Assembly: GCA_963640685.1 (NCBI GenBank)
Contig: CAVIAA010000004.1
Location: 543 to 64,542, forward strand
Direction: 5' to 3'
DNA length: 64,000 bases
Source: Acutalibacteraceae bacterium
GTDB taxonomy: Bacteria; Bacillota; Clostridia; Christensenellales; CAG-138
Positions 48,154 to 64,000 of this stretch are shown here, piece by piece; the first letter of the stretch is position 1; each line of letters opens with the position of its first letter. The translations under genes were made by a program, and so were the position numbers. The notes below the pieces were generated by a model, which saw only the letters and a list, made by a program, of their open reading frames with translations, was not told the origin of the DNA and did no database searches.

Positions 48154-48246
48154 TGGCGGAGAAGGAGGGATTCGAACCCTCGCGCCAGTCACCCCAGCCT
48201 ACTCCCTTAGCAGGGGAGCCCCTTACAGCCTCTTGGGTACTTCTCC
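48154..48246 (-). tRNA. tRNA-Ser (anticodon GCU), CCA encoded
   Basis: Minus strand GGAGAAG..CTCCC-CTGCTAA-GGGAG..long variable arm..GAGGG-TTCGAAT-CCCTC-CTTCTCC-G-CCA. Confidence 0.9.
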
Positions 48247-48267
48247 ACGGCATTCGCTTTGTTGTTC

Positions 48268-48356
48268 TGGCGGAGAGAGAGGGATTCGAACCCCCGGTGC
48301 CTTGCGGCATCACCGGTTTTCAAGACCGGCTCCATAAACCACTCGGACATCTCTCC
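48268..48356 (-). tRNA. tRNA-Ser (anticodon UGA), CCA encoded
   Basis: Minus strand GGAGAGA..CCGGT-CTTGAAA-ACCGG..variable arm..GGGGG-TTCGAAT-CCCTC-TCTCTCC-G-CCA. Confidence 0.9.
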
Positions 48357-48491
48357 ATGTTTCAAGCCCCATAATTATAGCAAACGCCGCAGCCCATGTC
48401 AAGCCGCAGGTATAGTTTTTTTGCCGGGCGGGAATTACTACCCCTGCGGGCTGGTTTGCGCCCGCACTTTATAAAGGAGAAAAAGTATTAA

Positions 48492-49798: not shown

Positions 49799-49938
49799 AT
49801 GCATTTCTCCTTCTTTATGTATAGGGCTCTTGTTTTTTATTTTATCACATATCAACTCTCTTCGATATAGCTGTTCCAAAAGGCCGACTTGTGTGGTATG
49901 CTGTTAGATATAATAACGCTATGGAGGTTTCAGCCCAA

Positions 49939-50856
49939 ATGCAGCAGCTTAAAAGATATTTTGCCCTCGCGTTGTGCATACTGCTACTCGCGCTGCCGGT
50001 GCTTGCCGGCGCGGACTTCGGCGATTACTCCGGCGACAGCGACTACGGCGGAAGCTGGAGCTCAAGCTCAAGCTCAAGCTATTCCAGCAGCTATGACGAT
50101 TACGGCTCCAGCTATTACGACGACTCCGACGAGGTCACGTTTTTTGACGTATCGCTGGCCTTCGGAATAGTGATGATACTCGCGGCATACGCTACGATAG
50201 GCGACTGGCACAAGTCGAGAAGCGAGAAAAAGAACACGAATGCCGCCCGCGCCGAGGGCGCAAAGCGCACCGACGCTTCAAAGCTCAGCCCGCTTTCAAA
50301 GCTCAAGGCCGCCGACCCCGCCTTTGACGAGGGGGCGCTCGCCGAAAAGCTGTCCAACCTGTATATGCAGATGCAGAGCTGCTGGACGGCAAAGGACATT
50401 GAGCCGCTGAGGCCGTACTTTACCGATGCATTCTTTACCCAGCTGGAGCGGCAGCTAAACGGGCATAAGAGGCGCGGGGTGACAAACTACGTTGAGCGCA
50501 TCGCGGTGCTTGGCGTTGAGCTGCGCGGGTTCTTTACCTCGGGCGGCGAGCAGCACCTCATAGCCGAGCTGCGCACGAGGATAGTCGACTACACGCTGGA
50601 GGACAAATCCGGCGAGCTGGTATCCGGCAATAAGAACAAAGAGAAGTTCATGACCTACGAGTGGGAGCTGACCCGCGCCGAGGGCAGCAAAACGGAGGCG
50701 AGCGCCGGCGTAAAGAGCATCACCTGCCCGGGCTGCGGCGCGCCGATGTCCATAAACACCACCGCAAGGTGCGAATACTGCGGCAGGGTAGTTACGCTGA
50801 ACCACGCAGACTGGGCGATATCCGCCATACGCGGCATATCACAGCGGACGGTATAA
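49939..50856 (+). CDS. Tim44-like domain protein with signal peptide, Ser/Asp/Tyr-rich region and C-terminal zinc ribbon
   Basis: MQQLKRYFALALCILLLALPVLAGA signal. The Tim44-like block FDEGALAEKLSNLYMQMQSCWTAKDIEPLRPYFTD. CPGC...CEYC ribbon. Start is uncertain (GTG 49891, ATG 49921 or ATG 49939). Confidence 0.7.
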   Translation: MQQLKRYFALALCILLLALPVLAGADFGDYSGDSDYGGSWSSSSSSSYSSSYDDYGSSYYDDSDEVTFFDVSLAFGIVMILAAYATIGDWHKSRSEKKNTNAARAEGAKRTDASKLSPLSKLKAADPAFDEGALAEKLSNLYMQMQSCWTAKDIEPLRPYFTDAFFTQLERQLNGHKRRGVTNYVERIAVLGVELRGFFTSGGEQHLIAELRTRIVDYTLEDKSGELVSGNKNKEKFMTYEWELTRAEGSKTEASAGVKSITCPGCGAPMSINTTARCEYCGRVVTLNHADWAISAIRGISQRTV

Positions 50857-50877
50857 GCATTGTTTTGAGGTAAGCAC

Positions 50878-51303
50878 ATGATATCCACACGGGGAAGGTA
50901 TTCCGTAAGAATTTTGCTGGAGCTTGCGGGGCGGCCGGCGGGGGAGTTCATACCCCTGAAGGAGCTTGCCGCGAGGCAGGATATATCGCTCAAGTACGTT
51001 GAAAGGATAATGCCGCCGCTCAAGGCCGCGGGGCTGGTTGAAACCACGCACGGCATCGGCGGCGGTTACCGCCTTGCGGTATCGCCGGACAGCTGCACCA
51101 TCTGGGATATACTGAAGGTTGCGGAGGGGAGCATGGCGCCGGTCGCCTGCCTTGAAAACGGGGTCGAGCCCTGCCCGAGGGCTGCGGAGTGCCGAACCCT
51201 CCCCGTCTGGAAGGGGTACTACGACCTTACGAAGGGCTACTTTTCCTCGCTGACCCTATCCGACGTCATGAAAGCGCCGGAGGGCGGAAGCTATGTGATT
51301 TAG
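50878..51303 (+). CDS. Rrf2-family transcriptional regulator (IscR/CymR-like, three-Cys motif)
   Basis: MISTRGRYSVRILLELA...ISLKYVERIMPPLKAAGLV HTH. C-x7-C-x5-C (ACLENGVEPCPRAAEC) cluster-ligand-like motif. Confidence 0.88.
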   Translation: MISTRGRYSVRILLELAGRPAGEFIPLKELAARQDISLKYVERIMPPLKAAGLVETTHGIGGGYRLAVSPDSCTIWDILKVAEGSMAPVACLENGVEPCPRAAECRTLPVWKGYYDLTKGYFSSLTLSDVMKAPEGGSYVI

Positions 51304-51342
51304 CGCAAAAATCGAAAGGCGCTCCCAAGCGGAGCGCTTTTT

Positions 51343-52170
51343 TTATGCCTGTTTGTCGTAATCATCTAAGAAATGCACCCTTTTGCCCTTTGTCTTGTAG
51401 GCAATTACGGTATCGAGGCTGACGTTTTCCACGCTTTTGAATATGTGCGCTTCGACCGCGGGGTTGGTCTTTTTAAGCTCGCGTATCAGCCGCTTTACCT
51501 CCTGCCGTTTTGAGGCGGATTCGTCCGTTTCCGCGGCCTCGGTCAGCCTGCATGCGCAGCGCAGAAATTTCAGCCCGTTTTCCTCCCTCCAGGCGATTAT
51601 ATCCTCCTCGCGTATGTAGTACAGCGGGCGTATGAGCTCCATTCCTTCAAAATTCGTGCTGTGCAGCTTTGGCATCATGGTCTGTATCTGCGCGCCGTAC
51701 AGCATTCCCATGAGTATGGTCTCGATAACGTCGTCATAGTGGTGCCCTAAGGCTATCTTATTGCAGCCGAGCTGCCGCGCGTAGCGGTAGAGGTAGCCGC
51801 GCCGCATACGCGCACAGAGGTAGCAGGGGGATTTTTCGATGTGGGACACCGACTCGAATATGTCGGTCTCGAATATGCTTATCGGTATGCCGAGCTTTTC
51901 TGCGTTGTGCTCTATCATGGCCCGGTTTGCGGGGCTGTACCCCGGATCCATAACGAGATAGCGCAGCTCAAAGGGGAACTTATGCTGCCGCTCCAGCTCC
52001 TGAAACAGCTTTGCCATGAGCATTGAGTCCTTGCCGCCGGAGATGCACACGGCGATGCTGTCCCCCTCCTTTATCAGCTCATAGTCCCTTATCGCCCTCG
52101 TGAACGGCCGAAAGAGCCGGTTTTTGAACCGGCCCCTTATGCTCTCCTCAACTGTTATCGCCCTGTCCAT
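51343..52170 (-). CDS. TtcA-family tRNA 2-thiolation PP-loop ATPase
   Basis: PP-loop CISGGKDS, CYLCARMRRG, LGHHYDDVIETILM. The ATG overlaps the cysK stop (TGATG). Confidence 0.8.
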   Translation of the reverse strand: MDRAITVEESIRGRFKNRLFRPFTRAIRDYELIKEGDSIAVCISGGKDSMLMAKLFQELERQHKFPFELRYLVMDPGYSPANRAMIEHNAEKLGIPISIFETDIFESVSHIEKSPCYLCARMRRGYLYRYARQLGCNKIALGHHYDDVIETILMGMLYGAQIQTMMPKLHSTNFEGMELIRPLYYIREEDIIAWREENGLKFLRCACRLTEAAETDESASKRQEVKRLIRELKKTNPAVEAHIFKSVENVSLDTVIAYKTKGKRVHFLDDYDKQA

Positions 52171-53102
52171 CAGTCAGCAAACATCGGGGTGGAAAGGTAC
52201 CTGTCGCCGGTATCCGGCAGCAGCGCAACAATGGTCTTGCCCTCGTTTTCCGGCCGCTTTGCAAGCTCAACAGCCGCCCAGAGCGCAGCGCCGGAGGATA
52301 TGCCGACAAGCACCCCCTCGGTGCGGCCTATCTCCTTACCTGTTGCGAATGCGTCCTCGTTTTCAACGGGTATGATCTCGTCGTATATCCCGGTATCCAG
52401 CACCTCCGGCACAAAGCCCGCGCCGATGCCCTGTATCTTGTGCGCGCCTGCAACGCCGGTCGAAAGCACGGCGGAGCTCTTTGGTTCAACGGCGACTATC
52501 TTTATTGCGGGGTTTTTGCCCTTCAAATACCTGCCGACGCCGGTTATTGTGCCGCCGGTACCGACGCCCGCTACGAATATATCCACCTTGCCGTCGGTAT
52601 CCTCGTAAATTTCGGGGCCTGTGGTCTCAATGTGCGCCTCGGGGTTTGCGGGGTTTACGAACTGACCCGGGATAAAGCTGTTCGGAATTTCCCTTGCAAG
52701 CTCGTCCGCCTTTGCTATCGCGCCCTTCATGCCCTTTGCGCCCTCGGTGAGCACAAGCTCCGCGCCGTAGGCCTTCATCAGCTGCCTGCGCTCAACGCTC
52801 ATGCTGTCCGGCATAACTATAATTATGCGGTAGCCCCGCGCCGCGGCGACGGATGCAAGGCCAATGCCTGTGTTGCCGGAGGTCGGCTCGATTATGACGC
52901 TGCCCGCCTTTAGCAGCCCCTTTTGCTCCGCGTCGTCTATCATCTTCCTTGCGATCCTGTCCTTAACGCTGCCTGCGGGGTTGAAATACTCCAGCTTGCC
53001 CAGCAGCCTTGCCTTGAGGCCGTGCTTTTTTTCGAGGTTGGTCAGCTCCAGCAGCGGGGTGTGGCCGATAAGCTGATCGGCCGAGGTGTAGATCTTAGAC
53101 AT
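52170..53102 (-). CDS. cysK: Cysteine synthase A (O-acetylserine sulfhydrylase)
   Basis: HTPLLEL, PLP-lysine motif [17 protein letters not shown] loop. Confidence 0.93.
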
Positions 53103-53136
53103 AGTTGATATCTCCTTTAAAATAAATTCGCTCTAA

Positions 53137-53192
53137 ATACTACCAACTTGGTAGGTTGGTGGTATTATACCGCCGCCCTTTTAGCCTGTCAA
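53137..53192 (-). promoter_or_regulatory. Canonical promoter TTGACA-17-TATAAT plus nested palindromes at the cysK start site
   Basis: On the minus strand, TTGACA (53192-53187) and TATAAT (53169-64). Immediately downstream is ATACCACCAAC-CTACCAAgTTGGTAG-TAT, an overlapping inverted repeat at 53137-53165. Confidence 0.6.
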
Positions 53193-53212
53193 GGGGGGGA
53201 GAGCAGAATTTT

Positions 53213-54049
53213 TCAGTTATCAGAGCTGTTTTTTATCTCCATCGCCAGCCTGTACGCCTCGTTGCGGGGTACGTCCAGCAATGCGCTTGCCTGCTTGGCC
53301 GCGTCCTTGGCGGAAACGCCGTCGCTGAGCAGCCGCTTCAGCGTCTCCTCAAGGCTTGCAGCGGGCGCTTCCTCCCCCGCGCCGGCAACCACCAGCACGG
53401 TCTCGCCCTTTGGCGGCTTTTCGGCGTACCGCTGTGCAATTTCGGTGAGCGTTGCGCGGAAGGTCTCCTCGTGCAGCTTGGTGAGCTCGCGGCAGAGCGC
53501 AGCAGCCCTGTTGCCCCAGGCCACGGAAAGCTCGCCTGCCGTTTCCGCAACCCGCAGCGGGCTTTCGTATATTATAAGCGTTCCTTTTATGCGGGAGAGC
53601 CGCGCAACAGCCTCCCGCCGCTCCTTTCCGGCGCGGGGCAAAAAGCCGACAAAGCAGGCCTCGCCTGTCGGCAGCCCGCTCAAAACCAGCGCCGTGAGCG
53701 ACGCAGACGCCCCGGGCAGCACGAAAAACGGCAGGCCGCGCCTTATAAACGCCGAAACAAGCCGCTCCCCGGGGTCGGATATTCCGGGCAGGCCGGCATC
53801 TGAAACGAAGGCTATCGCCTCGCCCGATTGTACACGCTCAGCAATCTCCGCCGCGCGCTGCTCCTCGTTGTGCTCGTGGCAGGATATAAGCGGCTTTGAT
53901 ATCTCCAGCCGCGAAAGCAGCGCGCCGGTGTTGCGGGTGTCCTCGCAGTATACTCTGCTGCACTCCCTGAGCACCCTCAGCGCCCGCAGCGTTATGTCCT
54001 CCATGTTGCCAATCGGCGTTCCGCAAAGGTAAAGCCCGGCCTCCAGCAT
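53213..54049 (-). CDS. rsmI: 16S rRNA (cytidine1402-2'-O)-methyltransferase
   Basis: LYLCGTPIGNMEDITLRALRVLRECSRVYCEDTR, tetrapyrrole-methylase-fold RsmI signature. Confidence 0.9.
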   Translation of the reverse strand: MLEAGLYLCGTPIGNMEDITLRALRVLRECSRVYCEDTRNTGALLSRLEISKPLISCHEHNEEQRAAEIAERVQSGEAIAFVSDAGLPGISDPGERLVSAFIRRGLPFFVLPGASASLTALVLSGLPTGEACFVGFLPRAGKERREAVARLSRIKGTLIIYESPLRVAETAGELSVAWGNRAAALCRELTKLHEETFRATLTEIAQRYAEKPPKGETVLVVAGAGEEAPAASLEETLKRLLSDGVSAKDAAKQASALLDVPRNEAYRLAMEIKNSSDN

Positions 54050-54061
54050 ATCTTCCCTCCG

Positions 54062-54694
54062 TTATTCTTCAAAAATAAGCCCCGTTTTGCCGCCCTTTGT
54101 GCATTGAATCAGCGCAAGGTACGGGCCGCTTCTGCCGTTTACCAGCCTTATCCGCTTTGGCTCAAGCCTGCTTTCAACCAGCGCGTGGAAGCACTCCGCA
54201 AGGCGGGCGGCGGGGTAGCAGAGCCACAGCCTTCCGCCGTTTTTAAGCAGGCGGGCGGCGCAGCCTGCCGCGTCGTAAATGCTGCAGCTGTCCTGATGCA
54301 CGGCGGCGGCAACCGCGGGGTTTTCGCTGCGCGTTCCGCCGGAAAAGTACGGCGGATTGCATACCGCGCCGTCAAAGCTGCCTGCCCTCAGGGTGAGCGT
54401 GCGTATATCTGCGCAGAGCACCTCGATGTCCTCCTCCTGATGATTCAGCGCAATCGACTCCCGCATCAGCGCGCAGGCCGCAGGCTGAAGCTCCACCGCG
54501 GTGAATTTTGCGCCGGTCTTGCCGTTTATAAGAATCGAGAGTATGCCGTTGCCCGCGCCAAGGTCGAGGCAGCGACTGCCCCGCGCCGGCCGCGCAAAGT
54601 TTGCGAGCAGCACCGCGTCGCTCCCGTATGTAAAGCCCTCCGTGTCAACGACTATCGAGAGCCCGTTGTATTGCAGATCCTCAGTTCGCTTCAT
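54062..54694 (-). CDS. Class I SAM-dependent methyltransferase, YabB/TrmN6-like
   Basis: LDLGAGNGILS SAM loop and CNPPYF motif IV. The position upstream of rsmI matches the Bacillus yabB-yabC arrangement. Confidence 0.8.
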   Translation of the reverse strand: MKRTEDLQYNGLSIVVDTEGFTYGSDAVLLANFARPARGSRCLDLGAGNGILSILINGKTGAKFTAVELQPAACALMRESIALNHQEEDIEVLCADIRTLTLRAGSFDGAVCNPPYFSGGTRSENPAVAAAVHQDSCSIYDAAGCAARLLKNGGRLWLCYPAARLAECFHALVESRLEPKRIRLVNGRSGPYLALIQCTKGGKTGLIFEE

Positions 54695-54720
54695 AGAATA
54701 ATAGTATCATAAAATTGGGG

Positions 54721-54752
54721 AAAATAAAATAAAAAGGGATGCCGTGCATCCC
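54721..54752 (-). terminator. Rho-independent terminator (minus strand)
   Basis: On the minus strand, GGGATGC-acg-GCATCCC followed by a TTTTTATTTTATTTT run. First terminator downstream of the BREX / desulfurase / membrane-protein gene string. Confidence 0.7.
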
Positions 54753-54939
54753 GTGAAAAGCGGCGAAGCGGTCATAGCTTCTCGGCATTTACCCGCTCCC
54801 TTGCCCTTGAAAAAACCTCGCTTGCCGTGTGCCGAGCGGTACCGCAGCGGCTCTGTCCGCCTCGTCCAGCTTAAGCTCGGTTTCGTCGGTCAGCGCAGCA
54901 TACCGCTCAAGGCTCAGCACGACCATTTCCCCCTTCACT

Positions 54940-55620
54940 TCACTTCTCTTCACCCCTGGACAAAAACGACACGAACCGAAGCCGCCGGTCCAGCCTTTCC
55001 CCAACAAGGCCGACGGCCTTGCCGTTCGTAAACGCCGCAATTATGGTGCCTATTCCAAGCCCTTCAAGGTGCCCCAAAAAGACGAGCGTCATGCCCGCAG
55101 TTACCGCAAGGCAGGTCACATCGAATATAATTTTCACCTTTGGGTAACCAACGCCGAGAATGCTTGCAAGCTCCCGCGGGAAGAGGTCCGTCGGTATTAT
55201 CGGCAGCCAGCACCGGTTTGAAAGGGCGATGCCGAAGGCTATGAGCGCGTAGCTGACGGCAAAATACAGCACCCGCCACCAAAGCCCGGTCGGCAAAATG
55301 CCTATCCAAAGCTCGTGAACATCCAGCAGCTCGCCGAAAACAAAGCCTACGACAAAGCTGCCGAGGTACTGCGCAACGAAGCGGCGGCGCAGCAGCATAA
55401 GGCTCAAAACCAGCAGCCCCTGAAAAATATACGTCCAGGTGCCGAGCGAAAGCGCAGGCAGCACCTCGGAAAATGCAAACGGCACGCTGGATATCGCCGA
55501 AATTCCGGCGCCGGAATACAGCATCAGCACCACGCCGAAGCTGTTTATTATCACCGCCAGCAGCAGCGCCAGCTCGCCGCGGCATAGGGTCTTGGGTCGT
55601 TGGTCGTCGATGGGTTCCAC
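54940..55620 (-). CDS. Integral membrane protein (YczE/DUF6198-like, tentative)
   Basis: Six predicted TM. LLAVIINSFGVVLMLYSGAGISAISSVPFAFSEVL resembles YczE-type proteins. GTG 55620 lies 10 nt after GGGAGG. The TTG at 55665 is an alternative start. Confidence 0.55.
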   Translation of the reverse strand: MEPIDDQRPKTLCRGELALLLAVIINSFGVVLMLYSGAGISAISSVPFAFSEVLPALSLGTWTYIFQGLLVLSLMLLRRRFVAQYLGSFVVGFVFGELLDVHELWIGILPTGLWWRVLYFAVSYALIAFGIALSNRCWLPIIPTDLFPRELASILGVGYPKVKIIFDVTCLAVTAGMTLVFLGHLEGLGIGTIIAAFTNGKAVGLVGERLDRRLRFVSFLSRGEEK

Positions 55621-55695
55621 AGAGAATACGCCTCCCGAAAAAATAATACGGGCTGCACCGCCCAAATTGCGGTGCTGCCCCTTTCGCAGGCAAGT

Positions 55696-56838
55696 TTAGC
55701 AAACGGCGGGAGAGATGTCAAGGGTGGGGCACCTCCGCAACGCATCCGCCACCGCCGCCGCGACCTCAACGGCATCCTCCGGCTTATTATCCCGCCCGAA
55801 GGATATGCGTATCGTACCCTCTGCATATTCCAGCGGTACGCCGATCGCGCGGATCACATGCGAAAGGTGGGTGCTTACCGAATCGCAGGCGGAGCCGGTC
55901 GAAATAGATATCCCTTTCAAATCCAGCCGGTGCAGCAGCGCTTCGCCGCTCGCCCCGCGAATGGAGATGTTGATATTTCCCGGGAGCCGTTTTTCCGCGC
56001 CGTTTCTAATAAAGTCAACTCCTCCCCGTCTCAGGGCGTCAATAAAGTTGGCCTCCATTGCGCGCAGCCTTTCGGCGGTCTGATATATTCCGCTGCAGTT
56101 CTTTTTCAGCGCCGTCGCCATGCCCACGATGCCCGCAACGTTCTCCGTGCCGGCGCGCATTCCGCGCTCCTGCACCCCGCCGTCGGCATACGGCACAAGA
56201 AGCGTTCCGCGGCGAACATACAAAAAGCCGGTCCCCTTTGGGCCGTTGAACTTATGCGCCGAGGCCGAGAGCATGTCCACCCCGAGACCGCTTACATCAA
56301 CCGGAATATGGCCAACTGCCTGAACCGCATCGGTGTGGAACAGCGCCCCGCGCGCATGCGCAACAGTGGCCAGCTCTTTAATCGGCTCGATAGTGCCTAT
56401 TTCGTTATTCGCGAGCATGACCGAAACAAGGGTGGGGGAACCCTCTGCGCTCAGCGCTTCCTCCAGCACCGCCGGCAAAAGTATGCCTTTTGTATCGACC
56501 GGCAGGCGTGCTGCGTTCCTGCATGCGTTCAGAACGGCATGGTGCTCTATCGCCGATGTAAAAACCTTACGGCCGCCGCCGCTCAAGCCAGAGCATTTCA
56601 GCGCCCAGTTATCGCTTTCAGTCCCACCCGAAGTAAAAAATATTTCATCCGGCAACGCGCCGATGCAGCCGGCGATAGTCTCTCTCGCCTCAAGGATGGC
56701 CTTTTTCGGCCGGCGCGCAAGGGCGTAGGGCTGCGAGGCGTTGCCGTAATCCTCCAGCAAAAAGGGCTTCATCGCCTCAAAGGCGTCGGCATCCAGCCTT
56801 GTCGTCGCCGCGTTGTCGGCGTAGATAAACCGCTTCAC
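55696..56838 (-). CDS. Cysteine desulfurase (NifS/IscS class V aminotransferase)
   Basis: IYADNAATTR, PLP-lysine SAHKFNGPKG, catalytic Cys STGSACDS. GTG 56838 lies 5 nt after GAGGTG and only 17 nt downstream of the brxL stop. Confidence 0.9.
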   Translation of the reverse strand: MKRFIYADNAATTRLDADAFEAMKPFLLEDYGNASQPYALARRPKKAILEARETIAGCIGALPDEIFFTSGGTESDNWALKCSGLSGGGRKVFTSAIEHHAVLNACRNAARLPVDTKGILLPAVLEEALSAEGSPTLVSVMLANNEIGTIEPIKELATVAHARGALFHTDAVQAVGHIPVDVSGLGVDMLSASAHKFNGPKGTGFLYVRRGTLLVPYADGGVQERGMRAGTENVAGIVGMATALKKNCSGIYQTAERLRAMEANFIDALRRGGVDFIRNGAEKRLPGNINISIRGASGEALLHRLDLKGISISTGSACDSVSTHLSHVIRAIGVPLEYAEGTIRISFGRDNKPEDAVEVAAAVADALRRCPTLDISPAVC

Positions 56839-56855: not shown

Positions 56856-58322
56856 TCAATAGTTATACTGAATATCGGGAATAGCGTTTTTCCCCGGAAC
56901 GTTGAACTCCTTCGGGTCGATGATGCAAAGCTGCTTCTTGATTACGGCCCGCATTTCCTTTGCCGGCTCAAGGCAGTATTCGATAAATTCCTGCGGGTCA
57001 ATGTCTTCTTTTGACCTGGCATGAGGATAGAGGAGCTTTACAAACGCAGTGCAGAGGCGCTTGATCGCAGTAAGATCCCGCTGATCCGCCCCCTTCGGGA
57101 TGCTTAGGCATTCGTCTACGATCGAGCTTTGAGTCAGGTCCTCCCTCAGCTCATGCATCACTTCTGCAAAGTACTCGGTATTGATCGCCCACCCGTTGGC
57201 TATCATGGAAGAGTTCATTCTGGGTATTTCCCAGCCCGGTATGAACCCGTGGAACCTGTCGAGCGTTGCAGACTCGCCGAAAACGCTGCTGATATGCTCG
57301 ACCATGTTGGTATTAACGTTGAATCTTTCTGCGTTGATATTACCCAGAACGATCACGCCGGCATCTGCCGGTGTTTGAGAGTCAAAGCCCTTTATTTCGC
57401 CAAACTCCATATAGTGCTTCAAGGCCTGCTGTATTTGCCCGGGCTGCTCAAAGGTTATGGACTGCACCTCGTCAAAGCCGACATAATCAAACCGCGTCAG
57501 TAAGCCGCCGGTCTTCTTTGCGTTGTCGTAGATGAGCGACGCACGGGAGACCGTGCCGCCGCTGATGAGCCAGCCGCGCTTGCTTATTTTTTCGAATACA
57601 TAGCTTTTCCCGGTGCCCTTTGGAGCCAGCTCTATCAGGTTCACGCGCTTTTCAACGAAGGGCAGCAGGCGGCGCAGGAAGAACAGCTTCTTTTTTTCGC
57701 TCTCTTCGCCGTTTTCGTCGGTATAACCGGCGGGGTTGTAGTCGATGGCGGTCAAAACCACGTCGATCCATTCATGAATATCGAACTCGGCTCTGTATTC
57801 CTTAAAATCGTCCAGGTCAATAGCATAAGGGCAAAACGGCTTATACTCGACCATTGCAACGAAGCCCTTTGGCTTTGACCTTGAAGCCTCCAGTTGCCAC
57901 GACAGCGTGATGATACCCCAGTTTTCGCTCTCCCTAAGCAGCGTATCCTGCCATTTTTCCACGACGTCGTTGTTTACGACGCCCCCGGCGCCGCCGCGGT
58001 TGCCGCCAAAATCGGGCAGCTCAAACTGTGTTTTTCCCGTCTTTATATCGACATTCACGCGCACGCGGGCCAAAAACTGAACATTTTCCCCGTTCACCAT
58101 TCTGAACTTGAATTGTTCATAGTCCTCCCGAGAGGGGATATACTTGTTGATATAGCGCCTTACCGCTTCGTAATCGATCGCTCCGTCCTCATCGGAGAAC
58201 CTCATAACGAGCCAATCCCGCATATACGACGGGATACTGAGCTTGGAGAAGTACTCACTTCTCTGAGGATCCTTGAGCACGACCATGTCCGCAAATACTT
58301 CCCGAATTTTATTCTCTAACAT
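56856..58322 (-). CDS. brxL: BREX BrxL-like AAA+ ATPase, short form without recognisable Lon protease domain
   Basis: N-terminus ENKIREVFADMVVLKDPQRSEYFSKLSIPSYMRDWLVMRF is BrxL-like. Walker A LAPKGTGKS and Walker B YVGFDEVQ. Last gene after pglZ. Confidence 0.75.
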   Translation of the reverse strand: MLENKIREVFADMVVLKDPQRSEYFSKLSIPSYMRDWLVMRFSDEDGAIDYEAVRRYINKYIPSREDYEQFKFRMVNGENVQFLARVRVNVDIKTGKTQFELPDFGGNRGGAGGVVNNDVVEKWQDTLLRESENWGIITLSWQLEASRSKPKGFVAMVEYKPFCPYAIDLDDFKEYRAEFDIHEWIDVVLTAIDYNPAGYTDENGEESEKKKLFFLRRLLPFVEKRVNLIELAPKGTGKSYVFEKISKRGWLISGGTVSRASLIYDNAKKTGGLLTRFDYVGFDEVQSITFEQPGQIQQALKHYMEFGEIKGFDSQTPADAGVIVLGNINAERFNVNTNMVEHISSVFGESATLDRFHGFIPGWEIPRMNSSMIANGWAINTEYFAEVMHELREDLTQSSIVDECLSIPKGADQRDLTAIKRLCTAFVKLLYPHARSKEDIDPQEFIEYCLEPAKEMRAVIKKQLCIIDPKEFNVPGKNAIPDIQYNY

Positions 58323-58333
58323 ATCAAAGCTCC

Positions 58334-58534
58334 TTAGAGGAACAGGGTGCAGCCCTGCTCCTTGAATTCACTGATCTTTATATTCAGGTCTTCTACCTCA
58401 CAGCCGAGAAATTCGGCAAAACAGGCAAGGCAGTAAAATTCTTCCGTGTCTACGTCAACGAGTTTCATCGTGAGCGCGACCTCGTCTTTTGTTAAAGCTC
58501 TTCCGCACTCGCAGCAGGTTTTTTTCTTTGCCAC
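58334..58534 (-). CDS. 66-aa CxxC...CxxC zinc-ribbon-like protein embedded in the BREX operon
   Basis: The GTG start overlaps the pglZ stop (TAGTG). Its stop overlaps the AAGGAG RBS of brxL. Translation contains CCEC and CLAC pairs. Codon usage looks like the neighbouring genes. Confidence 0.6.
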   Translation of the reverse strand: MAKKKTCCECGRALTKDEVALTMKLVDVDTEEFYCLACFAEFLGCEVEDLNIKISEFKEQGCTLFL

Positions 58535-60885
58535 TATATATCACCCCCGCCACCCAGCGCAGATATTATCGTAAGCGGCATATCGACGTTCACGAGCCTT
58601 CCGTCGGCAACGATAACCGGGGCGTATTCTCCGGGCTCTATTTTCTCCAGGGTTATCTCCCATGTTTTTCCGTTGCCGCTGTCGCTGACCGCCGCTTGAA
58701 CTGTGCCGACCTTCACCTCAAGCGTTTTTATCTCCTTGCTGAACTCAAGCGCAGCTCTTGCGGCCTTTCTTTTTAGCCTGACCTCAGCCTTGCCGTTTGC
58801 CCATTTTGCCGTAAGCGGCACGCTGATCCTGCTCTCAAAGACCACCACGGGAACTATCATCTCCTCGGGCGATGCACCCCCGTGCACTTCGCCATAGGTC
58901 GCGCGGTCTTCGTCCTTTCCCGTGGCAAAGCCGCTAAGAGAAAAATGGTCGTACGACGCAAACACGAGGTAATGCCGGCCGGATGGATCGACGACTTCTT
59001 TCATTCCTTCATAAACCGCCTCCGGTTTGGATCCGATGCTGCAGTATCTGCCGTGGCTGCGCGGCTCCGAATCCTTAAACGCCGGCAGGCCCTTTCGAGC
59101 GTGAAAGAATCTAGCGGCAAGGCGGCTCGCCCCGTGATCCCCGGTTATTATCACGCGCTGATGAGTTTTAAGAAGCTCGCTGACCTTGTCCGACACCCCA
59201 TTGAAAAAGCCGAGCTGCTCCTCGATGCAGGCGTAATAATCCGGCTCGTCTACCACCCCTTTATGTGCAAGCTTATCCAGCTTATCGAGCTTTGCGTATG
59301 GCACGTCCATCTGTTTCCATTGTTCGTTAAACTCCGTTTCCGTAGGCAGCAAAGCCTTTGTCAGTGCGCAATGTGAAACGGCTCCGTCCTTGTTCTTCGA
59401 GAGCCGGCCCAGCAGCAGCGAGAGATATTCAAAGCCAAGGCCGTCTATCCACAGCATTGCCGTGCCGCCGGTAAGGCTTTGCTTTATCACAGAATAGCGG
59501 GAGGGCAAGGTTTCCGGCTCAATGCCCCTGAAAAAGGCTTTTTCTGACTCCGGCAGCGTATTGGAAAGCTTATATACCTTGTACTCGGAGATATATTCGT
59601 TATAGACCGCCCCCAATTCGCCCGGCATCGGGCTCAAATATGACCACAGCAGGGGGTAGCGCAGCTTTAGCTCCTCGGAGGCGCAGGCCGCTTTTGCATC
59701 CTGCCTTAGCCATTGCCCGACAGTGCGGAGAGTATACGTGCGTTCCTCGCTCGTTGCATCGCTTAGAAGCGTCAGCCTTTCTTCATAGTTCGCTATGCGG
59801 CTCAGCTTTGCAAAATAGGCATCGCTCTTTTTGATGTTCAGCCCCTGAATAAGCTGCTTATATTCCGCTATCCAGTCGCTATGGAGCTGCATCTCGCCAA
59901 ATATATCCAGCAAAATGTGCTCCTCGAGCTCCTCTATTTCATACTTTTCAAGGCAGCGGCACAGATAGCTCTCGTCCGGGTTAAGCTGATACCAGAGCTT
60001 GAGCAGCTGACGCTTGCCCTTTGAAAGGCTGTTCCATTTAGCCATCACGGCGATGCCGTCAAAGGTCAGCATATTGAACCGGTGGAGTATCGCGTCCCTA
60101 ACCGAGATGTTCTTTAGCGATTCATCAAAGAGCTCGCTCAGCACCTCCTCGCTGCAGGCCTCCTCCCTTAGCTCATGGCCGCCCTGCAAATTTTTGCTGA
60201 CAAACTCATAAATTGTTTTTATCGGGCGGATCGTTATATCTACGTTCACGGGGATCACCGATCCGGCTTGCCTAGTAAGCAGGCAATAATCGTCCGTGAG
60301 CTGCGTCTCGTTCAGCATGCGCCCATACCATTCTCGCAAGCCGACTATCAGATCGTATTTTTTGCTCAGCTTATCGCGATGCTCCTCAAACGCAGAGGAG
60401 AACACCGTTATGCTCTTTTGCTCGTGATCCGGCTCATGATCCATGACCGAATAAACGAAGTCTTTTTGGCGTTCATCGGTCCTCAGCCCGAGGGATGCGT
60501 CGTTCCAGTGTGCATCGCAATTCCACAACGGAATGACGATACGCCCCGTGCTGGAGGCATCGACCATCGCATGCCAAAGCTTTGCAAACCGCCCGGAGCG
60601 CCGCTCACTTTCGTAAAACAGCCGCAGGTATTCGTCGACGCCCGGCAGCAAGACCCATTCATTCGGCTTTACCGTTTCCGGCAGCCTGTCGTATGCGGGC
60701 ATGACATCGGCGCCGGAAAACAGCTCTTCGAGCGACACAACCCTGTCGCACAGCTTTTTAAGCTCCGAAACCGCGCTGCAGTAGTCCTCCCTGCTGTGGA
60801 GCAGGAGCGCGCGGCACGGGAACCGGGAGCTGACCTTATTCTTTTTTCCTGCTCTGAGGTCGTTTATGCTCTCTTGCAGCTTCAT
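58534..60885 (-). CDS. pglZ: BREX alkaline-phosphatase-superfamily protein PglZ
   Basis: PglZ-type motifs WIDGLGFEYLSLLLG and VIITGDHGASRLA. ATG 60885 lies 8 nt after AAGGGGGGG. The in-frame ATG at 60906 would overlap the brxC stop. Confidence 0.85.
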   Translation of the reverse strand: MKLQESINDLRAGKKNKVSSRFPCRALLLHSREDYCSAVSELKKLCDRVVSLEELFSGADVMPAYDRLPETVKPNEWVLLPGVDEYLRLFYESERRSGRFAKLWHAMVDASSTGRIVIPLWNCDAHWNDASLGLRTDERQKDFVYSVMDHEPDHEQKSITVFSSAFEEHRDKLSKKYDLIVGLREWYGRMLNETQLTDDYCLLTRQAGSVIPVNVDITIRPIKTIYEFVSKNLQGGHELREEACSEEVLSELFDESLKNISVRDAILHRFNMLTFDGIAVMAKWNSLSKGKRQLLKLWYQLNPDESYLCRCLEKYEIEELEEHILLDIFGEMQLHSDWIAEYKQLIQGLNIKKSDAYFAKLSRIANYEERLTLLSDATSEERTYTLRTVGQWLRQDAKAACASEELKLRYPLLWSYLSPMPGELGAVYNEYISEYKVYKLSNTLPESEKAFFRGIEPETLPSRYSVIKQSLTGGTAMLWIDGLGFEYLSLLLGRLSKNKDGAVSHCALTKALLPTETEFNEQWKQMDVPYAKLDKLDKLAHKGVVDEPDYYACIEEQLGFFNGVSDKVSELLKTHQRVIITGDHGASRLAARFFHARKGLPAFKDSEPRSHGRYCSIGSKPEAVYEGMKEVVDPSGRHYLVFASYDHFSLSGFATGKDEDRATYGEVHGGASPEEMIVPVVVFESRISVPLTAKWANGKAEVRLKRKAARAALEFSKEIKTLEVKVGTVQAAVSDSGNGKTWEITLEKIEPGEYAPVIVADGRLVNVDMPLTIISALGGGGDI

Positions 60886-60898
60886 GGCAGGCCCCCCC

Positions 60899-63800
60899 TT
60901 AACCATTAAAATCGTCGCAGAACTCAGGGTGTGCGCTCAAAAATACGGACACCTTGTCCTTTAGCGCATCCTCGCTCATGCGCTTAACATGCATCTGAGT
61001 GCTTTGCAGCTTCTCCTTTTTGGCTTTTTCTACCTGATATTCTTTCAGGGTCTTTTGGACCGTCGTCAGGTCGGTGGCGCCCCACCCGCTCACGTCGTTG
61101 CCAAGCTTTAGCTTGAGCCTGGCAACTATCTCATCCCTTTTTTCTTCAAATACATCCTTGTAGTCGCTGCCGATGGCATCCATAAACGCCCGCTCTGCCG
61201 CTGCCCTATCCGTCAGAACCGTATTATCCATCGTATCCAGCATATTTATCGCGGCAAGTACATCCTGATCCAGCGTGCGCTCACCGTTTTGCACCGCGAT
61301 AAGCGTGCTGATAGCCTTTACAGCGTCCTTTGGAACGACCCAGCGAAGCGGTATTCCCCGCGCATTGCTCCAGACCTTTACGGTCTCGGTGCCGCTTAAG
61401 GTCTTCCAGCGCTCCAGCAGTATAGAGCGGTTCCTGCTCTGGCTGATGCGGCCGGTCTGGTTCTTCAGCTCTCTTTCAAAATGGCTCGCCGTTGCATCGC
61501 AGGAAGTGCCCTTTAGGCCTTCGTAGATGGTCTTAAGCTCCTCTTGTGTGCAGTCGATCTGCATATGGTCCAAAATAGCTGAAAGCACGGGCTTGGCGTC
61601 CTGGATGCACTCCCATGCCTGAGTGCCGTGGCTGCGCAGGGTATCGATGTCTTTTTCCCGCTCCTCGCAGCTCATCTGGGCGACGCCCCTTTGCGAAACA
61701 CGGCGCAGCGTGACCAAGGCGCCGTACCACGGCACGTTTAGCGGCTCTATGGCCAGTATCGCGACGCGCATATGTTCAAACGCATTTCTAAGGTCCCTTA
61801 TCGCGTCCTCGTTGCTGTTATATGTATTGCGCATCGTGGCGTTGAGCGCATCCAGATACCTATATTCGGATACTACGCCCTCAAGCTTTTCCTTTACCTG
61901 AGCTTCCGTCCATGTGTATACGGCGTTCTGCATCGAGCCGAAGATCTTATCCCTGAGTCCTTCGGGCCGTATGGACAGCTTTTCTGTAATTTCCTTAAGC
62001 TCCGGCGAGACCTCGAACAGGAATGCGCTGAAGGCCTTTGACATAACGGCTTTGTCCTGAAACGCCTTAGTCATCCGCTCGCGTATCCTGCCGCGCCCGA
62101 TGAAGAGTTGGATCACGTTGGACATCGCCTCGTCTGTATTGCCCTCTTGCGAAATAAACACCTGCATGTTGTCGACGACCTGTACGGCGATATCCTTTGC
62201 CTCCGCCCCGCCGAGCGCTTCCTCCGGAACGTACTTCAAGCACCAGAATGGCGCACCGGCCTGAGTTATCCGCTCGCGAACGGAGCGCATGCCCTCGGTT
62301 TCGTTTGCGGTCTGTCCGTCCTCCAGATCGAACATCTTTTCTACGTATTTGCGGAACTTCTGCCACGTTACGGAGCCTGCGGAAAGGTAGTCCGTCGTCA
62401 TGCTTCCCCGGCAGGTATTTAGCACGAGCGTTTTTAAGTTGGCTTCATTGAGCACAAACGTGCCCTGCGAGCTGTCCGTCCAGCTATATGCGCCGTTCTT
62501 ATAGCAGCTGAACACAAAGCCGAGGAGAACGCCGCAGGCAATGGTGTTATAAAAGCCAAAGGGGGGCTGCTGCAGCTCCGCCCACATATCGCTGAGCACG
62601 ACCTTGCGCCCGGACTCCATCCTTACGCGCAAAAATTTGGCCAGGGCGCTTATGGCGTCGGCCGCCTTGCTGCCGGTAACGCCCTCGATCTCTCCTATCT
62701 TCTTTGCATTTATGATGCCCAGCTGCTTGATGACGTACAGAACGCTTGAAAGCTGAGAATTCTTTGTTTCGCGCTGTATGCCGGCAAGAGGGGCGCTGTC
62801 GTTGCAGCTCTTATAGGCCGTGTTGGTTATTACGACGTTTTCCGGCGCATACGGAAATACCTCATCCAGGACGGCGGTCCTGATGATCTTGCGCAGCTCG
62901 GCAACGCCAAAGATGTTATTCCACTGCTTTTTGCCGCACCATGCGGTGATCTTGCTGCCGCTCACGACGGAGGATACCCAGCGTGTGATCGATAGTGCAG
63001 CGTCGCTGTCATGCCGGCCCGCGTCTGCGGTGTGGCCGCTCTCGCGCGCCATATCCGCCTTGGTGATCGAGGTGAGCAGCTGCCCGCGCATGCTGTCCGT
63101 GAACGGATCGCGTACCAACGCAATTACCAGCCTGTCCTCGCCGGACCTCCGCGCCCGCTCCTCCAGCTCGCTTTGTATGGAGATCGCCTGTATCTCGCTG
63201 GCCACAGTAACGTACACAAGACCAAGCTTATAAGGATACTTTTCCAGCTCATCTGTAACTTCTTTGATGCGGCTATCAAGAGATCTATCTTCCGCGCAGC
63301 AGGCAACTACCTTCATCCTGCGGAAGGTTGCATCGTTCTCGTCCCCTGCCTGCTTTTCCAGCGCTGCGGACAGCTTCCCGTCCTTTGCAAAAAGCTGATA
63401 GCGCGTGTACTTCTTGTCGTTTTGCGCGTAGCGAACGGAAAAGTCGTCGCCGCCGGCCATGCGAAACGGCATCTGCAGCCGCTTTGTTCCGTTTGCCTGC
63501 TCATCGCAGAGCAGTATCTTGCTTTCTTCAAAGGTCGCAAGGTAATCCTTGATCTGAGCCTTGCTCAAAACGCCGCTCAGGCAGTTTTCAAGGCACTCCA
63601 CAGTTGCGGCGATGCCGCTGCTTGACCGCCTCGTGGTGTACAGCCCCTTTGTCGTGGACATGACCGCCATAAGGAGCATTGCTATCTTAAATATGCGGTG
63701 CGCATTTTCGTCGTTTTCAACGAGATAACGGCTCTCCTCGTAGTGGCGGATATACTCCGGCGCCTTTGTTTCCTTGTCGTGGAAGTCGCTTTCCCGCGTG

Positions 63801-64000
63801 AAGAAGTAGTCCCACAGCCAGTCCGGCGTCAGCCAGCATTCCTGATCCATCGGGCCATACTTGTTTATATACCCGAGGAAGCCCTGCGTTTCGTTTGCGG
63901 CGTCCTTCATAAAGCGGAACATTGTACGCTGGGCCGCGGCAAAGTTTTCCGCTACGCTGGAAAGCAGACGTATCGTCATCGGGTGCATTGGGCAAAGCTC
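60899..64000 (-). CDS. brxC: Large BREX protein, BrxC/PglY-like by position (C-terminal ~1030 aa; 5' end outside window)
   Basis: The frame stays open to nt 64000. It is a protein of more than 1030 aa directly upstream of and coupled to pglZ. I see no canonical NPPY/F or GxGxG methyltransferase motifs. The expected N-terminal P-loop would lie outside the window. Confidence 0.55.
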   Translation of the reverse strand, partial: ELCPMHPMTIRLLSSVAENFAAAQRTMFRFMKDAANETQGFLGYINKYGPMDQECWLTPDWLWDYFFTRESDFHDKETKAPEYIRHYEESRYLVENDENAHRIFKIAMLLMAVMSTTKGLYTTRRSSSGIAATVECLENCLSGVLSKAQIKDYLATFEESKILLCDEQANGTKRLQMPFRMAGGDDFSVRYAQNDKKYTRYQLFAKDGKLSAALEKQAGDENDATFRRMKVVACCAEDRSLDSRIKEVTDELEKYPYKLGLVYVTVASEIQAISIQSELEERARRSGEDRLVIALVRDPFTDSMRGQLLTSITKADMARESGHTADAGRHDSDAALSITRWVSSVVSGSKITAWCGKKQWNNIFGVAELRKIIRTAVLDEVFPYAPENVVITNTAYKSCNDSAPLAGIQRETKNSQLSSVLYVIKQLGIINAKKIGEIEGVTGSKAADAISALAKFLRVRMESGRKVVLSDMWAELQQPPFGFYNTIACGVLLGFVFSCYKNGAYSWTDSSQGTFVLNEANLKTLVLNTCRGSMTTDYLSAGSVTWQKFRKYVEKMFDLEDGQTANETEGMRSVRERITQAGAPFWCLKYVPEEALGGAEAKDIAVQVVDNMQVFISQEGNTDEAMSNVIQLFIGRGRIRERMTKAFQDKAVMSKAFSAFLFEVSPELKEITEKLSIRPEGLRDKIFGSMQNAVYTWTEAQVKEKLEGVVSEYRYLDALNATMRNTYNSNEDAIRDLRNAFEHMRVAILAIEPLNVPWYGALVTLRRVSQRGVAQMSCEEREKDIDTLRSHGTQAWECIQDAKPVLSAILDHMQIDCTQEELKTIYEGLKGTSCDATASHFERELKNQTGRISQSRNRSILLERWKTLSGTETVKVWSNARGIPLRWVVPKDAVKAISTLIAVQNGERTLDQDVLAAINMLDTMDNTVLTDRAAAERAFMDAIGSDYKDVFEEKRDEIVARLKLKLGNDVSGWGATDLTTVQKTLKEYQVEKAKKEKLQSTQMHVKRMSEDALKDKVSVFLSAHPEFCDDFNG

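What the first reader, a model, noticed from the sequence alone, without database searches (positions are those of the whole stretch)
56856..64000. BREX-like defence operon with brxC-pglZ-brxL order and no methyltransferase gene in between (type-4-like), cut by the window edge
Seen in the sequence, on the minus strand:
- An ORF of more than 1030 aa, open to the window edge.
- PglZ, with motifs WIDGLGFEYL and VIITGDHGASR.
- A 66-aa CxxC ORF.
- A BrxL-like AAA+ protein with Walker A LAPKGTGKS and Walker B VGFDEVQ.

The four ORFs are packed with overlapping or near-overlapping stops and starts. The AAGGGGGGG RBS for pglZ sits across the brxC stop. TAGTG joins pglZ to the small ORF. An 11-nt gap carrying AAGGAG precedes brxL.

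From established knowledge, the common type 1 BREX order is brxA-brxB-brxC-pglX-pglZ-brxL, with the pglX methyltransferase between brxC and pglZ. A direct brxC-pglZ-brxL order was described only for the rare type 4, which starts with a PAPS-reductase-like brxP and has no pglX. As far as I know type 4 has not been characterised experimentally.

My own counts of three 60-nt lines inside these genes give about 47-55% G+C. Two lines in the adjacent desulfurase and cysK genes give about 65-68%. That is consistent with horizontal acquisition.
Basis: partly seen in the sequence, partly recalled or inferred. Interest (0 to 1): 0.85.

Follow-up and report, generated by a model that had tools for sequence, protein, structure and literature searches.

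The report
Type 4 BREX phosphorothioate defence cassette
This is a real type 4 BREX anti-phage gene cassette, a kind now known to mark host DNA with sulfur instead of methyl groups, so it is a correct call of a known system and not a new one.

Summary
The four minus-strand ORFs, their motifs and their tight junctions are all present as described.
- PglZ matches NCBIfam "BREX-4 system phosphatase PglZ" (285 bits, cut-off 140).
- BrxL matches TIGR02688 (415 bits, cut-off 329).
- The large ORF is residues 367-1399 of a 1399-aa BrxC with Walker A and B motifs.

In relatives, brxP (PAPS reductase) sits directly upstream of brxC, and no pglX is present.

Three corrections:
1. Type 4 is no longer uncharacterised. 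Yuan et al. (bioRxiv 2024, Nat Commun 2026) showed that BrxP plus BrxC make phosphorothioate DNA.
2. The "adjacent" cysteine desulfurase belongs to the cassette. It follows brxL in essentially all related loci long enough to show it, across 23 different downstream contexts. A 2026 NAR survey already reports this desulfurase and the small zinc-finger gene.
3. The G+C contrast is weak (54.8% against 57.6%). Acquisition is shown instead by strains with near-identical flanks (98-99% nt) that lack the island, which starts at 54729.

Verdict: a new member of a known kind, of modest interest. Two leads from relatives, outside the window:
- a conserved, unannotated multi-winged-helix gene upstream of brxP;
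- replacement of the brxP core between otherwise identical cassettes.

The parts
60899..64000 (-). brxC/pglY, 3' part: residues 367-1399 of a 1399-aa P-loop ATPase. The gene would start about 1.1 kb beyond the window edge.
   Evidence: PADLOC BrxC 6.7e-27 for the fragment. The full-length protein of the same contig, P0001, is 100% identical over the fragment and scores 209.7 bits on PADLOC BrxC and hits PF19557/DUF6079. Its Walker A (GSYGTGKS, 67-74) and Walker B (IFFIWDEF, 246-253) lie outside the window.
58534..60885 (-). pglZ (brxZ), type 4 subfamily, 783 aa. The metal-site motifs WIDGLG and TGDHG are intact. About 470 residues precede the catalytic domain.
   Evidence: NCBIfam NF033445 BREX_PglZ_4, 284.7 bits against a cut-off of 140, covering profile positions 1-739 of 741. 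PADLOC PglZ 8e-29. Motifs and the RBS/start junction.
58334..58534 (-). Gene for a 66-aa Cys-rich protein, predicted to be a small zinc-binding three-helix (HTH-like) protein. Its GTG start overlaps the pglZ stop (TAGTG).
   Evidence: Present between pglZ and brxL in 73 of 73 related loci. 601 protein clusters, the 120 listed being 63-68 aa; seven invariant Cys in the 23-sequence alignment A4. AF2 model pLDDT 78 with three helices; only weak HTH-type fold matches. No Pfam, PADLOC or NCBIfam hit.
56856..58322 (-). brxL, short form (488 aa): BrxL_N plus the AAA+ ATPase domain, without the C-terminal Lon-protease-like domain.
   Evidence: TIGR02688 415.3 bits (cut-off 329.3). The longer model TIGR02653 is matched only over positions 4-453 of 675. 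PF20442 and PF13337. PADLOC BrxL 5.5e-185.
55696..56838 (-). DndA/SspA/NifS-type cysteine desulfurase, the last gene of the cassette. The GTG start at 56838 lies 17 nt after the brxL stop and has a GAGGTG RBS; an alternative TTG at 56859 overlaps the stop. The PLP lysine (SASAHK) and the catalytic cysteine (TGSAC) are present.
   Evidence: PADLOC DndA 376.6 bits and SspA 373.5 bits. PF00266. It follows brxL within -28 to +39 nt (tblastn hit ends) in 62 of 64 loci long enough to show it by the strict gap filter; the two missed are most likely the overlapping hits (gaps -28 and -3). The downstream contexts fall into 23 different clusters. Start and motifs.
54729..55695 (-). Distal end of the strain-specific island: a DUF6198 gene (54940-55620), a 45-aa ORF (54789-54926) and a terminator-like hairpin (54736-54752). 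This is island cargo, not part of the conserved cassette.
   Evidence: Homology to strains without the island (L085, 98.2% nt) stops at window 54728. DUF6198 follows the desulfurase only in L001, which is the same strain.

Best explanation
The region is the 3' two-thirds of a type 4 BREX cassette, the BREX variant that marks host DNA with phosphorothioate (PT) instead of N6-methyladenine.

In this gut Bacillota-type lineage the cassette is a fixed seven-gene unit:
1. a large multi-winged-helix protein;
2. brxP;
3. brxC;
4. pglZ;
5. a 66-aa zinc-finger/HTH-like gene;
6. brxL;
7. a cysteine desulfurase.

The window holds the last five genes, with brxC truncated by the edge.

Proposed working:
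- The cassette's own DndA/SspA-like desulfurase takes sulfur from cysteine as a persulfide. This step is inferred from homology.
- BrxP is a PP-loop/PAPS-reductase enzyme with a Cys-rich Fe-S-like region. Together with the SspC-like ATPase BrxC it puts sulfur into the DNA backbone at short motifs. This was shown for Bacteroides salyersiae homologues and is inferred here.
- PglZ, a metal-dependent phosphatase/nuclease-family protein, and the AAA+ protein BrxL block replication of incoming DNA that lacks the mark. This is inferred from type 1 BREX and has not been shown for any type 4 system.
- The small Cys-rich protein is most likely a DNA-binding regulator or adaptor. This inference is weak.

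The cassette lies on a strain-specific island.
For: Identity of the genes in the window:
- PglZ matches the type-4-specific model, and BrxL matches TIGR02688; both are above curated cut-offs.
- BrxC matches PADLOC BrxC and PF19557, and weakly matches SspC models.
- The full-length BrxC has Walker A and B motifs.
- The desulfurase scores equally on PADLOC DndA and SspA.

Architecture in relatives:
- L004, whose BrxC is 79% identical, has brxP directly upstream: PAPS_reduct plus Fer4, PADLOC BrxP 783 bits.
- Counts over the 84 loci then held (80 metagenome loci plus L001-L004), among those long enough to show each gene: BrxP 66/67, the upstream large gene 60/61, PglZ 72/73, the zinc-finger gene 73/73, BrxL 70/70, the desulfurase 62/64. 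Order and tight spacing hold down to about 40% PglZ identity.
- There are 23 distinct downstream contexts.

Acquisition:
- Conspecific contigs L085/L086 are 98-99% identical in the flanks but lack everything beyond window 54728.

Literature:
- BrxP plus BrxC, with a host desulfurase, suffice for PT synthesis. brxZ and brxL are dispensable for it (PMC12914056).
Against: - brxP and the start of brxC are not in the window, and the window's own contig could not be fetched. Their presence is inferred from relatives.
- No PT chemistry or phage assay exists for this lineage. All validated type 4 systems are from Bacteroidota.
- I found no paper reporting phage exclusion by any type 4 system.
- Pfam PglZ (PF08665) did not reach E <= 0.01 in my scan.
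- Pfam DUF4007 was not detected in BrxP at E <= 0.1.
- The role of the small protein rests on non-significant fold matches.
Confidence: 0.85

Rival explanations
1. The cassette only writes a PT epigenetic mark, for example for redox or regulatory purposes, and gives no phage exclusion. PglZ and BrxL would then have another role or none.
For: brxZ and brxL are dispensable for PT synthesis in B. salyersiae. No phage assay for type 4 turned up in the literature searches. PT sites are only partly modified.
Against: - pglZ and brxL are retained in 72/73 and 70/70 loci, and BrxL is the most conserved protein of the set.
- The catalytic motifs are intact.
- The cassette sits on a strain-variable island, as defence genes usually do.
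- Homologous PglZ and BrxL are needed for restriction in type 1 BREX (established knowledge).
Confidence: 0.1
2. It is a decayed or rearranged type 1 BREX that lost pglX, or carries pglX elsewhere in the operon.
For: pglX cannot be excluded for the unseen 5' part of this particular contig.
Against: - PglZ matches the BREX-4-specific model, not the other subtype models.
- Relatives have brxP directly upstream and no methyltransferase within 10 kb.
- The same seven-gene order recurs in more than 60 loci.
- The nearby 210-aa methyltransferase (54062-54694) belongs to the conserved core next to rsmI and is present in strains without the island.
Confidence: 0.02
3. The desulfurase is an ordinary housekeeping NifS/IscS for Fe-S cluster synthesis that merely abuts the operon.
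For: - Its best NCBIfam score is to NifS (389 bits), below every curated cut-off, DndA included.
- Its G+C (59%) is closer to the core than that of the other cassette genes.
Against: - It follows brxL in essentially all loci long enough to show it, in 23 different contexts, at 52-72% identity.
- It is absent from this position in strains that lack the island.
- It is tightly spaced after brxL and has its own RBS.
- The literature lists it as a candidate sixth core component.
Confidence: 0.04
4. It should be filed as an Ssp-type PT system (SspBCD) that has recruited PglZ and BrxL as effectors, and not as BREX.
For: BrxC also matches SspC models (90.7 bits), BrxP matches SspD (32 bits), and the desulfurase matches SspA. 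The literature treats BrxP as an SspD-SspB fusion and BrxC as an SspC homologue.
Against: - The BrxC and BrxP models score far higher: 209.7 against 90.7 bits, and 783 against 32 bits.
- There is no separate sspB gene and no sspE or sspFGH in the cassette.
- This is mainly a question of naming. The two families are homologous.
Confidence: 0.05

Closest known systems
BREX type 4 (brxP-brxC-pglZ-brxL), validated for phosphorothioate synthesis in Bacteroides salyersiae DSM18765 (Yuan et al., Nat Commun 2026, PMC12914056)
   Same: The same four core genes in the same order, with no pglX. PglZ belongs to the NCBIfam BREX-4 subfamily. BrxP is a PAPS-reductase fusion protein. The source is also gut-associated.
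   Different: - The relatives are named Clostridium, Oscillospiraceae, Bulleidia and the like, not Bacteroidota.
- This cassette carries its own cysteine desulfurase, a 66-aa Cys-rich gene and a large winged-helix gene.
- It has no mcrA-like gene.
- The PT motif and any phage protection are untested.
Type 4 BREX with a cysteine desulfurase and a small zinc-finger protein (comparative survey, NAR 2026, PMC12839542)
   Same: The in-window anatomy matches the survey: a desulfurase as a candidate sixth core component (56% of taxa), often with a small zinc-finger/HTH-like protein, and a PglZ with a long N-terminal extension.
   Different: - The main text of that survey, as far as I read it, does not describe the conserved large multi-winged-helix gene upstream of brxP or the brxP core replacements seen here.
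- I did not test whether the N-terminus of PglZ is the inactive STAND domain the survey reports.
SspABCD-SspE / SspFGH phosphorothioate defence
   Same: A homologous modification module: a desulfurase (SspA), a PAPS-reductase-type enzyme (SspD) and a DUF6079/DUF499 ATPase (SspC).
   Different: The effectors are PglZ and BrxL, not SspE or SspFGH. SspB and SspD functions are fused in BrxP. The Ssp profile scores are much weaker than the Brx ones.
Type 1 BREX (brxA-brxB-brxC-pglX-pglZ-brxL)
   Same: BrxC, PglZ and BrxL are homologous, and the logic is presumably the same: mark self DNA and exclude unmarked DNA.
   Different: There is no PglX methyltransferase and no separate brxA or brxB. BrxL is the short form without the Lon-protease-like domain. 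The mark is backbone sulfur, not m6A.

Membership tests
BREX type 4 | PglZ of the type 4 subfamily | tested here: met
   NF033445 BREX_PglZ_4, 284.7 bits against a cut-off of 140, nearly full-length. The DGLG and GDHG metal-site motifs are present.
BREX type 4 | BrxC/PglY P-loop ATPase directly upstream of pglZ | tested here: met
   PADLOC BrxC 209.7 bits and PF19557 for the full-length P0001, which is 100% identical to the window fragment, with Walker A and B motifs. A 13-nt gap separates it from pglZ.
BREX type 4 | BrxL AAA+ (Lon-like) protein | tested here: met
   TIGR02688 415.3 bits against a cut-off of 329.3; PF20442 plus PF13337.
BREX type 4 | brxP (PAPS-reductase-domain protein) in the operon | tested here: inconclusive
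   brxP lies outside the window, and the window's own contig could not be retrieved. It is present directly upstream of brxC in 66 of 67 related loci; PADLOC BrxP 783 bits and PF01507 in L004.
BREX type 4 | No pglX-type N6-adenine methyltransferase in the operon | tested here: met
   No room exists between the genes in the window. There is no methyltransferase in the cassette or within 10 kb upstream in relatives. The 210-aa methyltransferase at 54062-54694 is a core gene next to rsmI.
BREX type 4 | Phosphorothioate modification of host DNA | not testable with these tools
   This needs LC-MS/MS or PT-seq. It has been shown only for Bacteroidota homologues (PMC12914056).
BREX type 4 | Exclusion of phage | not testable with these tools
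SspABCD PT system | Separate sspB nickase gene and an SspE or SspFGH effector | tested here: not met
   No such genes occur in the cassette in the window or in relatives. The SspC and SspD models score well below the BrxC and BrxP models.
Dnd PT system | dndC-dndD-dndE genes with a DndA desulfurase | tested here: not met
   Only the desulfurase resembles DndA: PADLOC 376.6 bits, and NCBIfam DndA 281.5 bits, below its cut-off of 480. BrxP matches DndC only weakly (26.9 bits). No DndD or DndE is present.
BREX type 1 | pglX, brxA and brxB genes | tested here: not met
   These genes are absent from the window and from relatives' cassettes.

The most novel reading that the evidence does not exclude
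In this Bacillota lineage, type 4 BREX is a self-sufficient seven-gene unit with two features that the papers I read do not describe.

(a) A conserved protein of about 700-1140 aa, built from tandem winged-helix domains and encoded just upstream of brxP, may be the DNA-sensing or PT-reading component that type 4 systems otherwise seem to lack.

(b) The catalytic and DNA-binding core of BrxP (roughly residues 150-685) is replaced wholesale between cassettes that are otherwise 97-100% identical. That would make BrxP, not BrxC, the exchangeable determinant of the PT target motif. Which component sets the motif is a question Yuan et al. left open.

Both observations come from related loci, not from the window.
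Probability: 0.3. Interest if true: 0.55.

Novelty: new member of a known kind. Interest (0 to 1): 0.3.

Why it matters
The first-stage call is correct, which shows that type 4 BREX can be recognised from gene order and motifs alone. The system itself is now known to write phosphorothioate marks.

Three things remain open and could be addressed with this cassette:
- whether any type 4 system excludes phage, and how PglZ and BrxL read a sulfur mark;
- whether a cassette-encoded desulfurase makes the system independent of its host and so portable;
- which protein sets the PT motif.

The natural brxP-core replacements seen in relatives offer ready-made material for the last question.

Tried and rejected
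- **Fetching the window's own contig.** Exact look-ups of the 790-aa PglZ and of the full-length BrxC (P0001) found nothing on record. BrxL gave only a 10.9-kb contig of the same strain that also starts inside brxC (L001). So brxP of this contig was not seen.
- **Genome-collection scan with PglZ.** It returned only two short contigs.
- **Pfam.** PF08665 PglZ did not reach E <= 0.01 in my hmmscan. DUF4007 was not found in BrxP at E <= 0.1.
- **The upstream large gene.** No Pfam, PADLOC or PDB-sequence match. Foldseek gave no hit at E <= 0.001, only tandem winged-helix arrays at E about 0.07.
- **The 66-aa protein.** Foldseek found only non-significant HTH matches.
- **Plasmid collection.** Only a 22%-identical Methanosphaera BREX-4 PglZ turned up, so there is no evidence of plasmid carriage.
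- **G+C as evidence of acquisition.** Rejected as too weak: 54.8% against 57.6%, with overlapping GC3 ranges.
- **A link between the nearby GmrSD/SspE-like gene and the cassette.** Rejected: it has no homologue in any of the 84 related loci then held.
- **A link between the cassette and the adjacent sulfur-metabolism genes cysK and ttcA.** Rejected: these are core genes, present in strains without the island.
Full report
**1. Observation**

The ORF listing and direct translation confirm the four co-directional minus-strand ORFs.
- 60899-64000: 1033 codons, open at the window edge.
- 58534-60906: 790 aa.
- 58334-58534: 66 aa.
- 56856-58322: 488 aa.

WIDGLGFEYL and VIITGDHGASR are in the second ORF. 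LAPKGTGKS and VGFDEVQ are in the fourth.

The junctions are also as described.
- The brxC TAA stop is followed by 13 nt before the pglZ ATG, and AAGGGGGGG spans the stop.
- TAGTG gives a 1-nt overlap between pglZ and the small ORF.
- An 11-nt gap carrying AAGGAG precedes brxL.

The G+C contrast is the one weak part of the observation.
- Whole-gene G+C is 47-55% for the four genes.
- It is 59.4% for the desulfurase and 58.9% for cysK, not 65-68%.
- The GC3 ranges overlap.

**2. Identity of the genes**

- PglZ matches the subtype-specific NCBIfam model NF033445, "BREX-4 system phosphatase PglZ". The score is 284.7 bits against a cut-off of 140, over 739 of 741 profile positions.
- BrxL matches TIGR02688 at 415.3 bits (cut-off 329.3), plus PF20442 and PF13337. 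It aligns only to positions 4-453 of the 675-position long-BrxL model. It is therefore the short form without the Lon-protease-like domain.
- The large ORF matches PADLOC BrxC models and, more weakly, SspC models.
- A protein search returned P0001, the 1399-aa full-length product from the window's own 102-kb contig. It is 100% identical over the fragment.
- P0001 carries Walker A (GSYGTGKS, 67-74) and Walker B (IFFIWDEF, 246-253). It scores 209.7 bits on PADLOC BrxC and hits PF19557.
- The window holds residues 367-1399 of P0001.

**3. What lies beyond the edge**

The window's own contig could not be fetched, so I used relatives.

The NCBI assembly locus L004 has a BrxC 79% identical to the window's. 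Its gene order is:
1. an unannotated gene;
2. a 778-aa PAPS_reduct/Fer4 protein, PADLOC BrxP 783 bits over its full length;
3. brxC;
4. pglZ;
5. a 66-aa ORF;
6. brxL;
7. a class-V aminotransferase.

A metagenome scan with a BrxC alignment gave 80 further loci. I ran tblastn with the window proteins and the two upstream proteins of L004. The same seven-gene order appears wherever the contig is long enough:

| Gene | Loci with the gene / loci long enough |
|---|---|
| Upstream large gene | 60/61 |
| BrxP | 66/67 |
| PglZ | 72/73 |
| Small ORF | 73/73 |
| BrxL | 70/70 |
| Desulfurase | 62/64 (strict filter) |

The two desulfurase misses are most likely the two pairs whose tblastn hits overlap (gaps of -28 and -3 nt), which the filter excluded. 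The order holds down to about 40% PglZ identity. No methyltransferase occurs in or upstream of these cassettes.

**4. The desulfurase belongs to the cassette**

The evidence says otherwise.
- It scores 376.6 bits on PADLOC DndA and 373.5 bits on SspA.
- It keeps the PLP lysine and the catalytic cysteine.
- It starts 17 nt after the brxL stop, behind a GAGGTG RBS.
- It follows brxL in every related locus, although the DNA downstream of it falls into 23 unrelated contexts among 55 loci.
- The next gene in the window, DUF6198, is found only in the same-strain contig L001.

**5. Acquisition**

Contigs from conspecific strains (L085 and L086, with an identical RsmI) align to the window as follows:

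| Window segment | Identity to L085 |
|---|---|
| 47677-54728 | 98.2% |
| 40893-45407 | 99.3% |

They have nothing homologous beyond 54728. At that position L085 carries hicB, an acetyltransferase gene and a V-ATPase operon.

The BREX cassette, together with DUF6198 and a 45-aa ORF, is therefore a strain-specific island whose visible boundary is at 54729, just after a terminator-like hairpin. cysK, ttcA, rsmI and the 210-aa methyltransferase belong to the shared core.

Island G+C is 54.8% against 57.6% for the core.

**6. Mechanism and what is known**

Yuan et al. (bioRxiv June 2024; Nat Commun 2026, PMC12914056) reported:
- Bacteroides salyersiae carrying brxPCZL has PT dinucleotides.
- Deleting brxC abolishes them.
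- brxP plus brxC (cloned together with the intervening mcrA) confer PT on a host that has SufS.
- brxZ, brxL and mcrA are not needed for PT synthesis.

A comparative survey (NAR 2026, PMC12839542) reported:
- a cysteine desulfurase in 56% of type 4 taxa, as a candidate sixth core component;
- DUF4007 (BrxA/SspB-like) is fused to BrxP;
- an inactive STAND domain sits at the N-terminus of PglZ in 64% of type 4 taxa.

The in-window anatomy is thus already described.

The most likely working, with the basis for each step:
- The desulfurase supplies persulfide sulfur. Inferred from homology.
- BrxP and BrxC install PT at short motifs. Shown for homologues, inferred here.
- PglZ and BrxL exclude unmarked DNA. 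By analogy with type 1 BREX; not shown for any type 4 system.

I found no paper with a phage assay for type 4. Yuan et al. say that anti-phage activity of their variants awaits investigation.

**7. The small ORF**

It is a real gene.
- A protein search found 601 clusters; the 120 listed are all 63-68 aa.
- Seven Cys are invariant in the 23-sequence alignment A4: C7, C8, C10, C35, C38, C45 and C62.
- The C-terminus, EFKEQGCTLFL, is almost invariant.
- The AF2 model (pLDDT 78) has three helices after a Cys knuckle.
- Foldseek finds only non-significant HTH-type matches such as KorA, sigma region 4 and DeoR.

This fits the literature's description but does not fix a function.

**8. Leads outside the window**

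(a) The gene upstream of brxP.
- It encodes a protein of about 700-1140 aa with a variable N-terminal part and a conserved C-terminal ~370 residues.
- It has no Pfam, PADLOC or PDB-sequence match.
- An AF2 model (pLDDT 78.7; domains mostly 85-90) is a string of domains.
- Its best fold matches are tandem winged-helix arrays: SelB WH1-4 at probability 0.9-0.99 and E about 0.07, and TFIIIC tauB.
- I propose a nucleic-acid-binding role. No nuclease fold was recognised.

(b) Replacement of the brxP core.
- In three separate lineages (L055/L052, L041/L042, L026/L030) the cassettes are 97-100% identical in DNA on both sides. The exception is a sharply bounded ~1.5-kb segment inside brxP, from about nt 450-600 to nt 2050.
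- That segment corresponds to roughly residues 150-685. It shows 45-77% nt and 49-58% aa identity.
- This looks like allelic replacement of the enzyme and DNA-binding core. It is a candidate explanation for how PT motif specificity changes.

**9. Verdict**

However, the system is a new member of a known, recently characterised kind, and its extra genes in the window have been reported. Interest is modest at 0.3. The remaining value lies in the untested restriction arm of type 4 BREX and in the two leads from relatives.

Noticed in passing
window 45408-47676 (gene 45452-47545, minus strand): A 2.27-kb islet of 40.6% G+C lies about 0.5 kb from two tRNA-Ser genes (48154-48356). It encodes a 697-aa GmrSD-type (DUF262 + DUF1524) type IV restriction-like protein. 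Its best PADLOC matches are 'Orf5' (440 bits) and HEC-06, with weak SspE matches in the N-terminal domain. The islet is cleanly absent from the conspecific contig L085, and no homologue occurs in the BREX-4 loci, so it appears to be independent of the cassette.
   Followed up: partly
L055/L052, L041/L042 and L026/L030: brxP, about nt 450-2050 of the gene: Cassettes that are otherwise 97-100% identical differ by wholesale replacement of the BrxP core (about residues 150-685; 49-58% aa identity). This is seen in three lineages and 60 locus pairs. It may be a switch of PT motif specificity.
   Followed up: partly
Relatives, upstream of brxP (e.g. L010:4000-6948; L004:5999-7558 is a short 519-aa form): A conserved but unannotated gene of about 700-1140 aa, present in 60 of 61 loci. 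The N-terminal part is variable and the C-terminal ~370 residues are conserved. The AF2 model is a chain of domains that resemble tandem winged helices (SelB-like). No known family matches.
   Followed up: partly
window 54789-55620: A DUF6198 gene and a 45-aa ORF lie inside the strain-specific island but are not conserved with the cassette elsewhere. A sigma-70-like promoter (55693-55721) at the end of the desulfurase gene may drive them.
   Followed up: no
window 51343-54694: The sulfur-related core genes cysK, ttcA and a divergently transcribed Rrf2-family regulator gene (about 50878-51303, + strand) lie just beyond the trmN6-like methyltransferase and rsmI, close to a sulfur-inserting DNA modification island. 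They are present unchanged in strains without the island, so the proximity looks coincidental.
   Followed up: yes
L083 (10001-15482), L082, L069: brxC, or the brxC-pglZ interval, is 1.3-2.5 kb longer than normal in these loci. This suggests insertions (possibly IS elements) that disrupt the cassette in some strains.
   Followed up: no
All related loci: Evolutionary rates within the cassette are very uneven. At 80% identity BrxL falls into only 2 clusters, against 18-22 clusters for BrxC, PglZ and the BrxP core. A minority of loci carry a second BrxL class, about 50% identical to the window's.
   Followed up: no
L085 8832-9194: In strains without the island, the equivalent position holds a hicB antitoxin-like gene next to an acetyltransferase gene. 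The site may therefore be a recurrent integration or variable spot.
   Followed up: no
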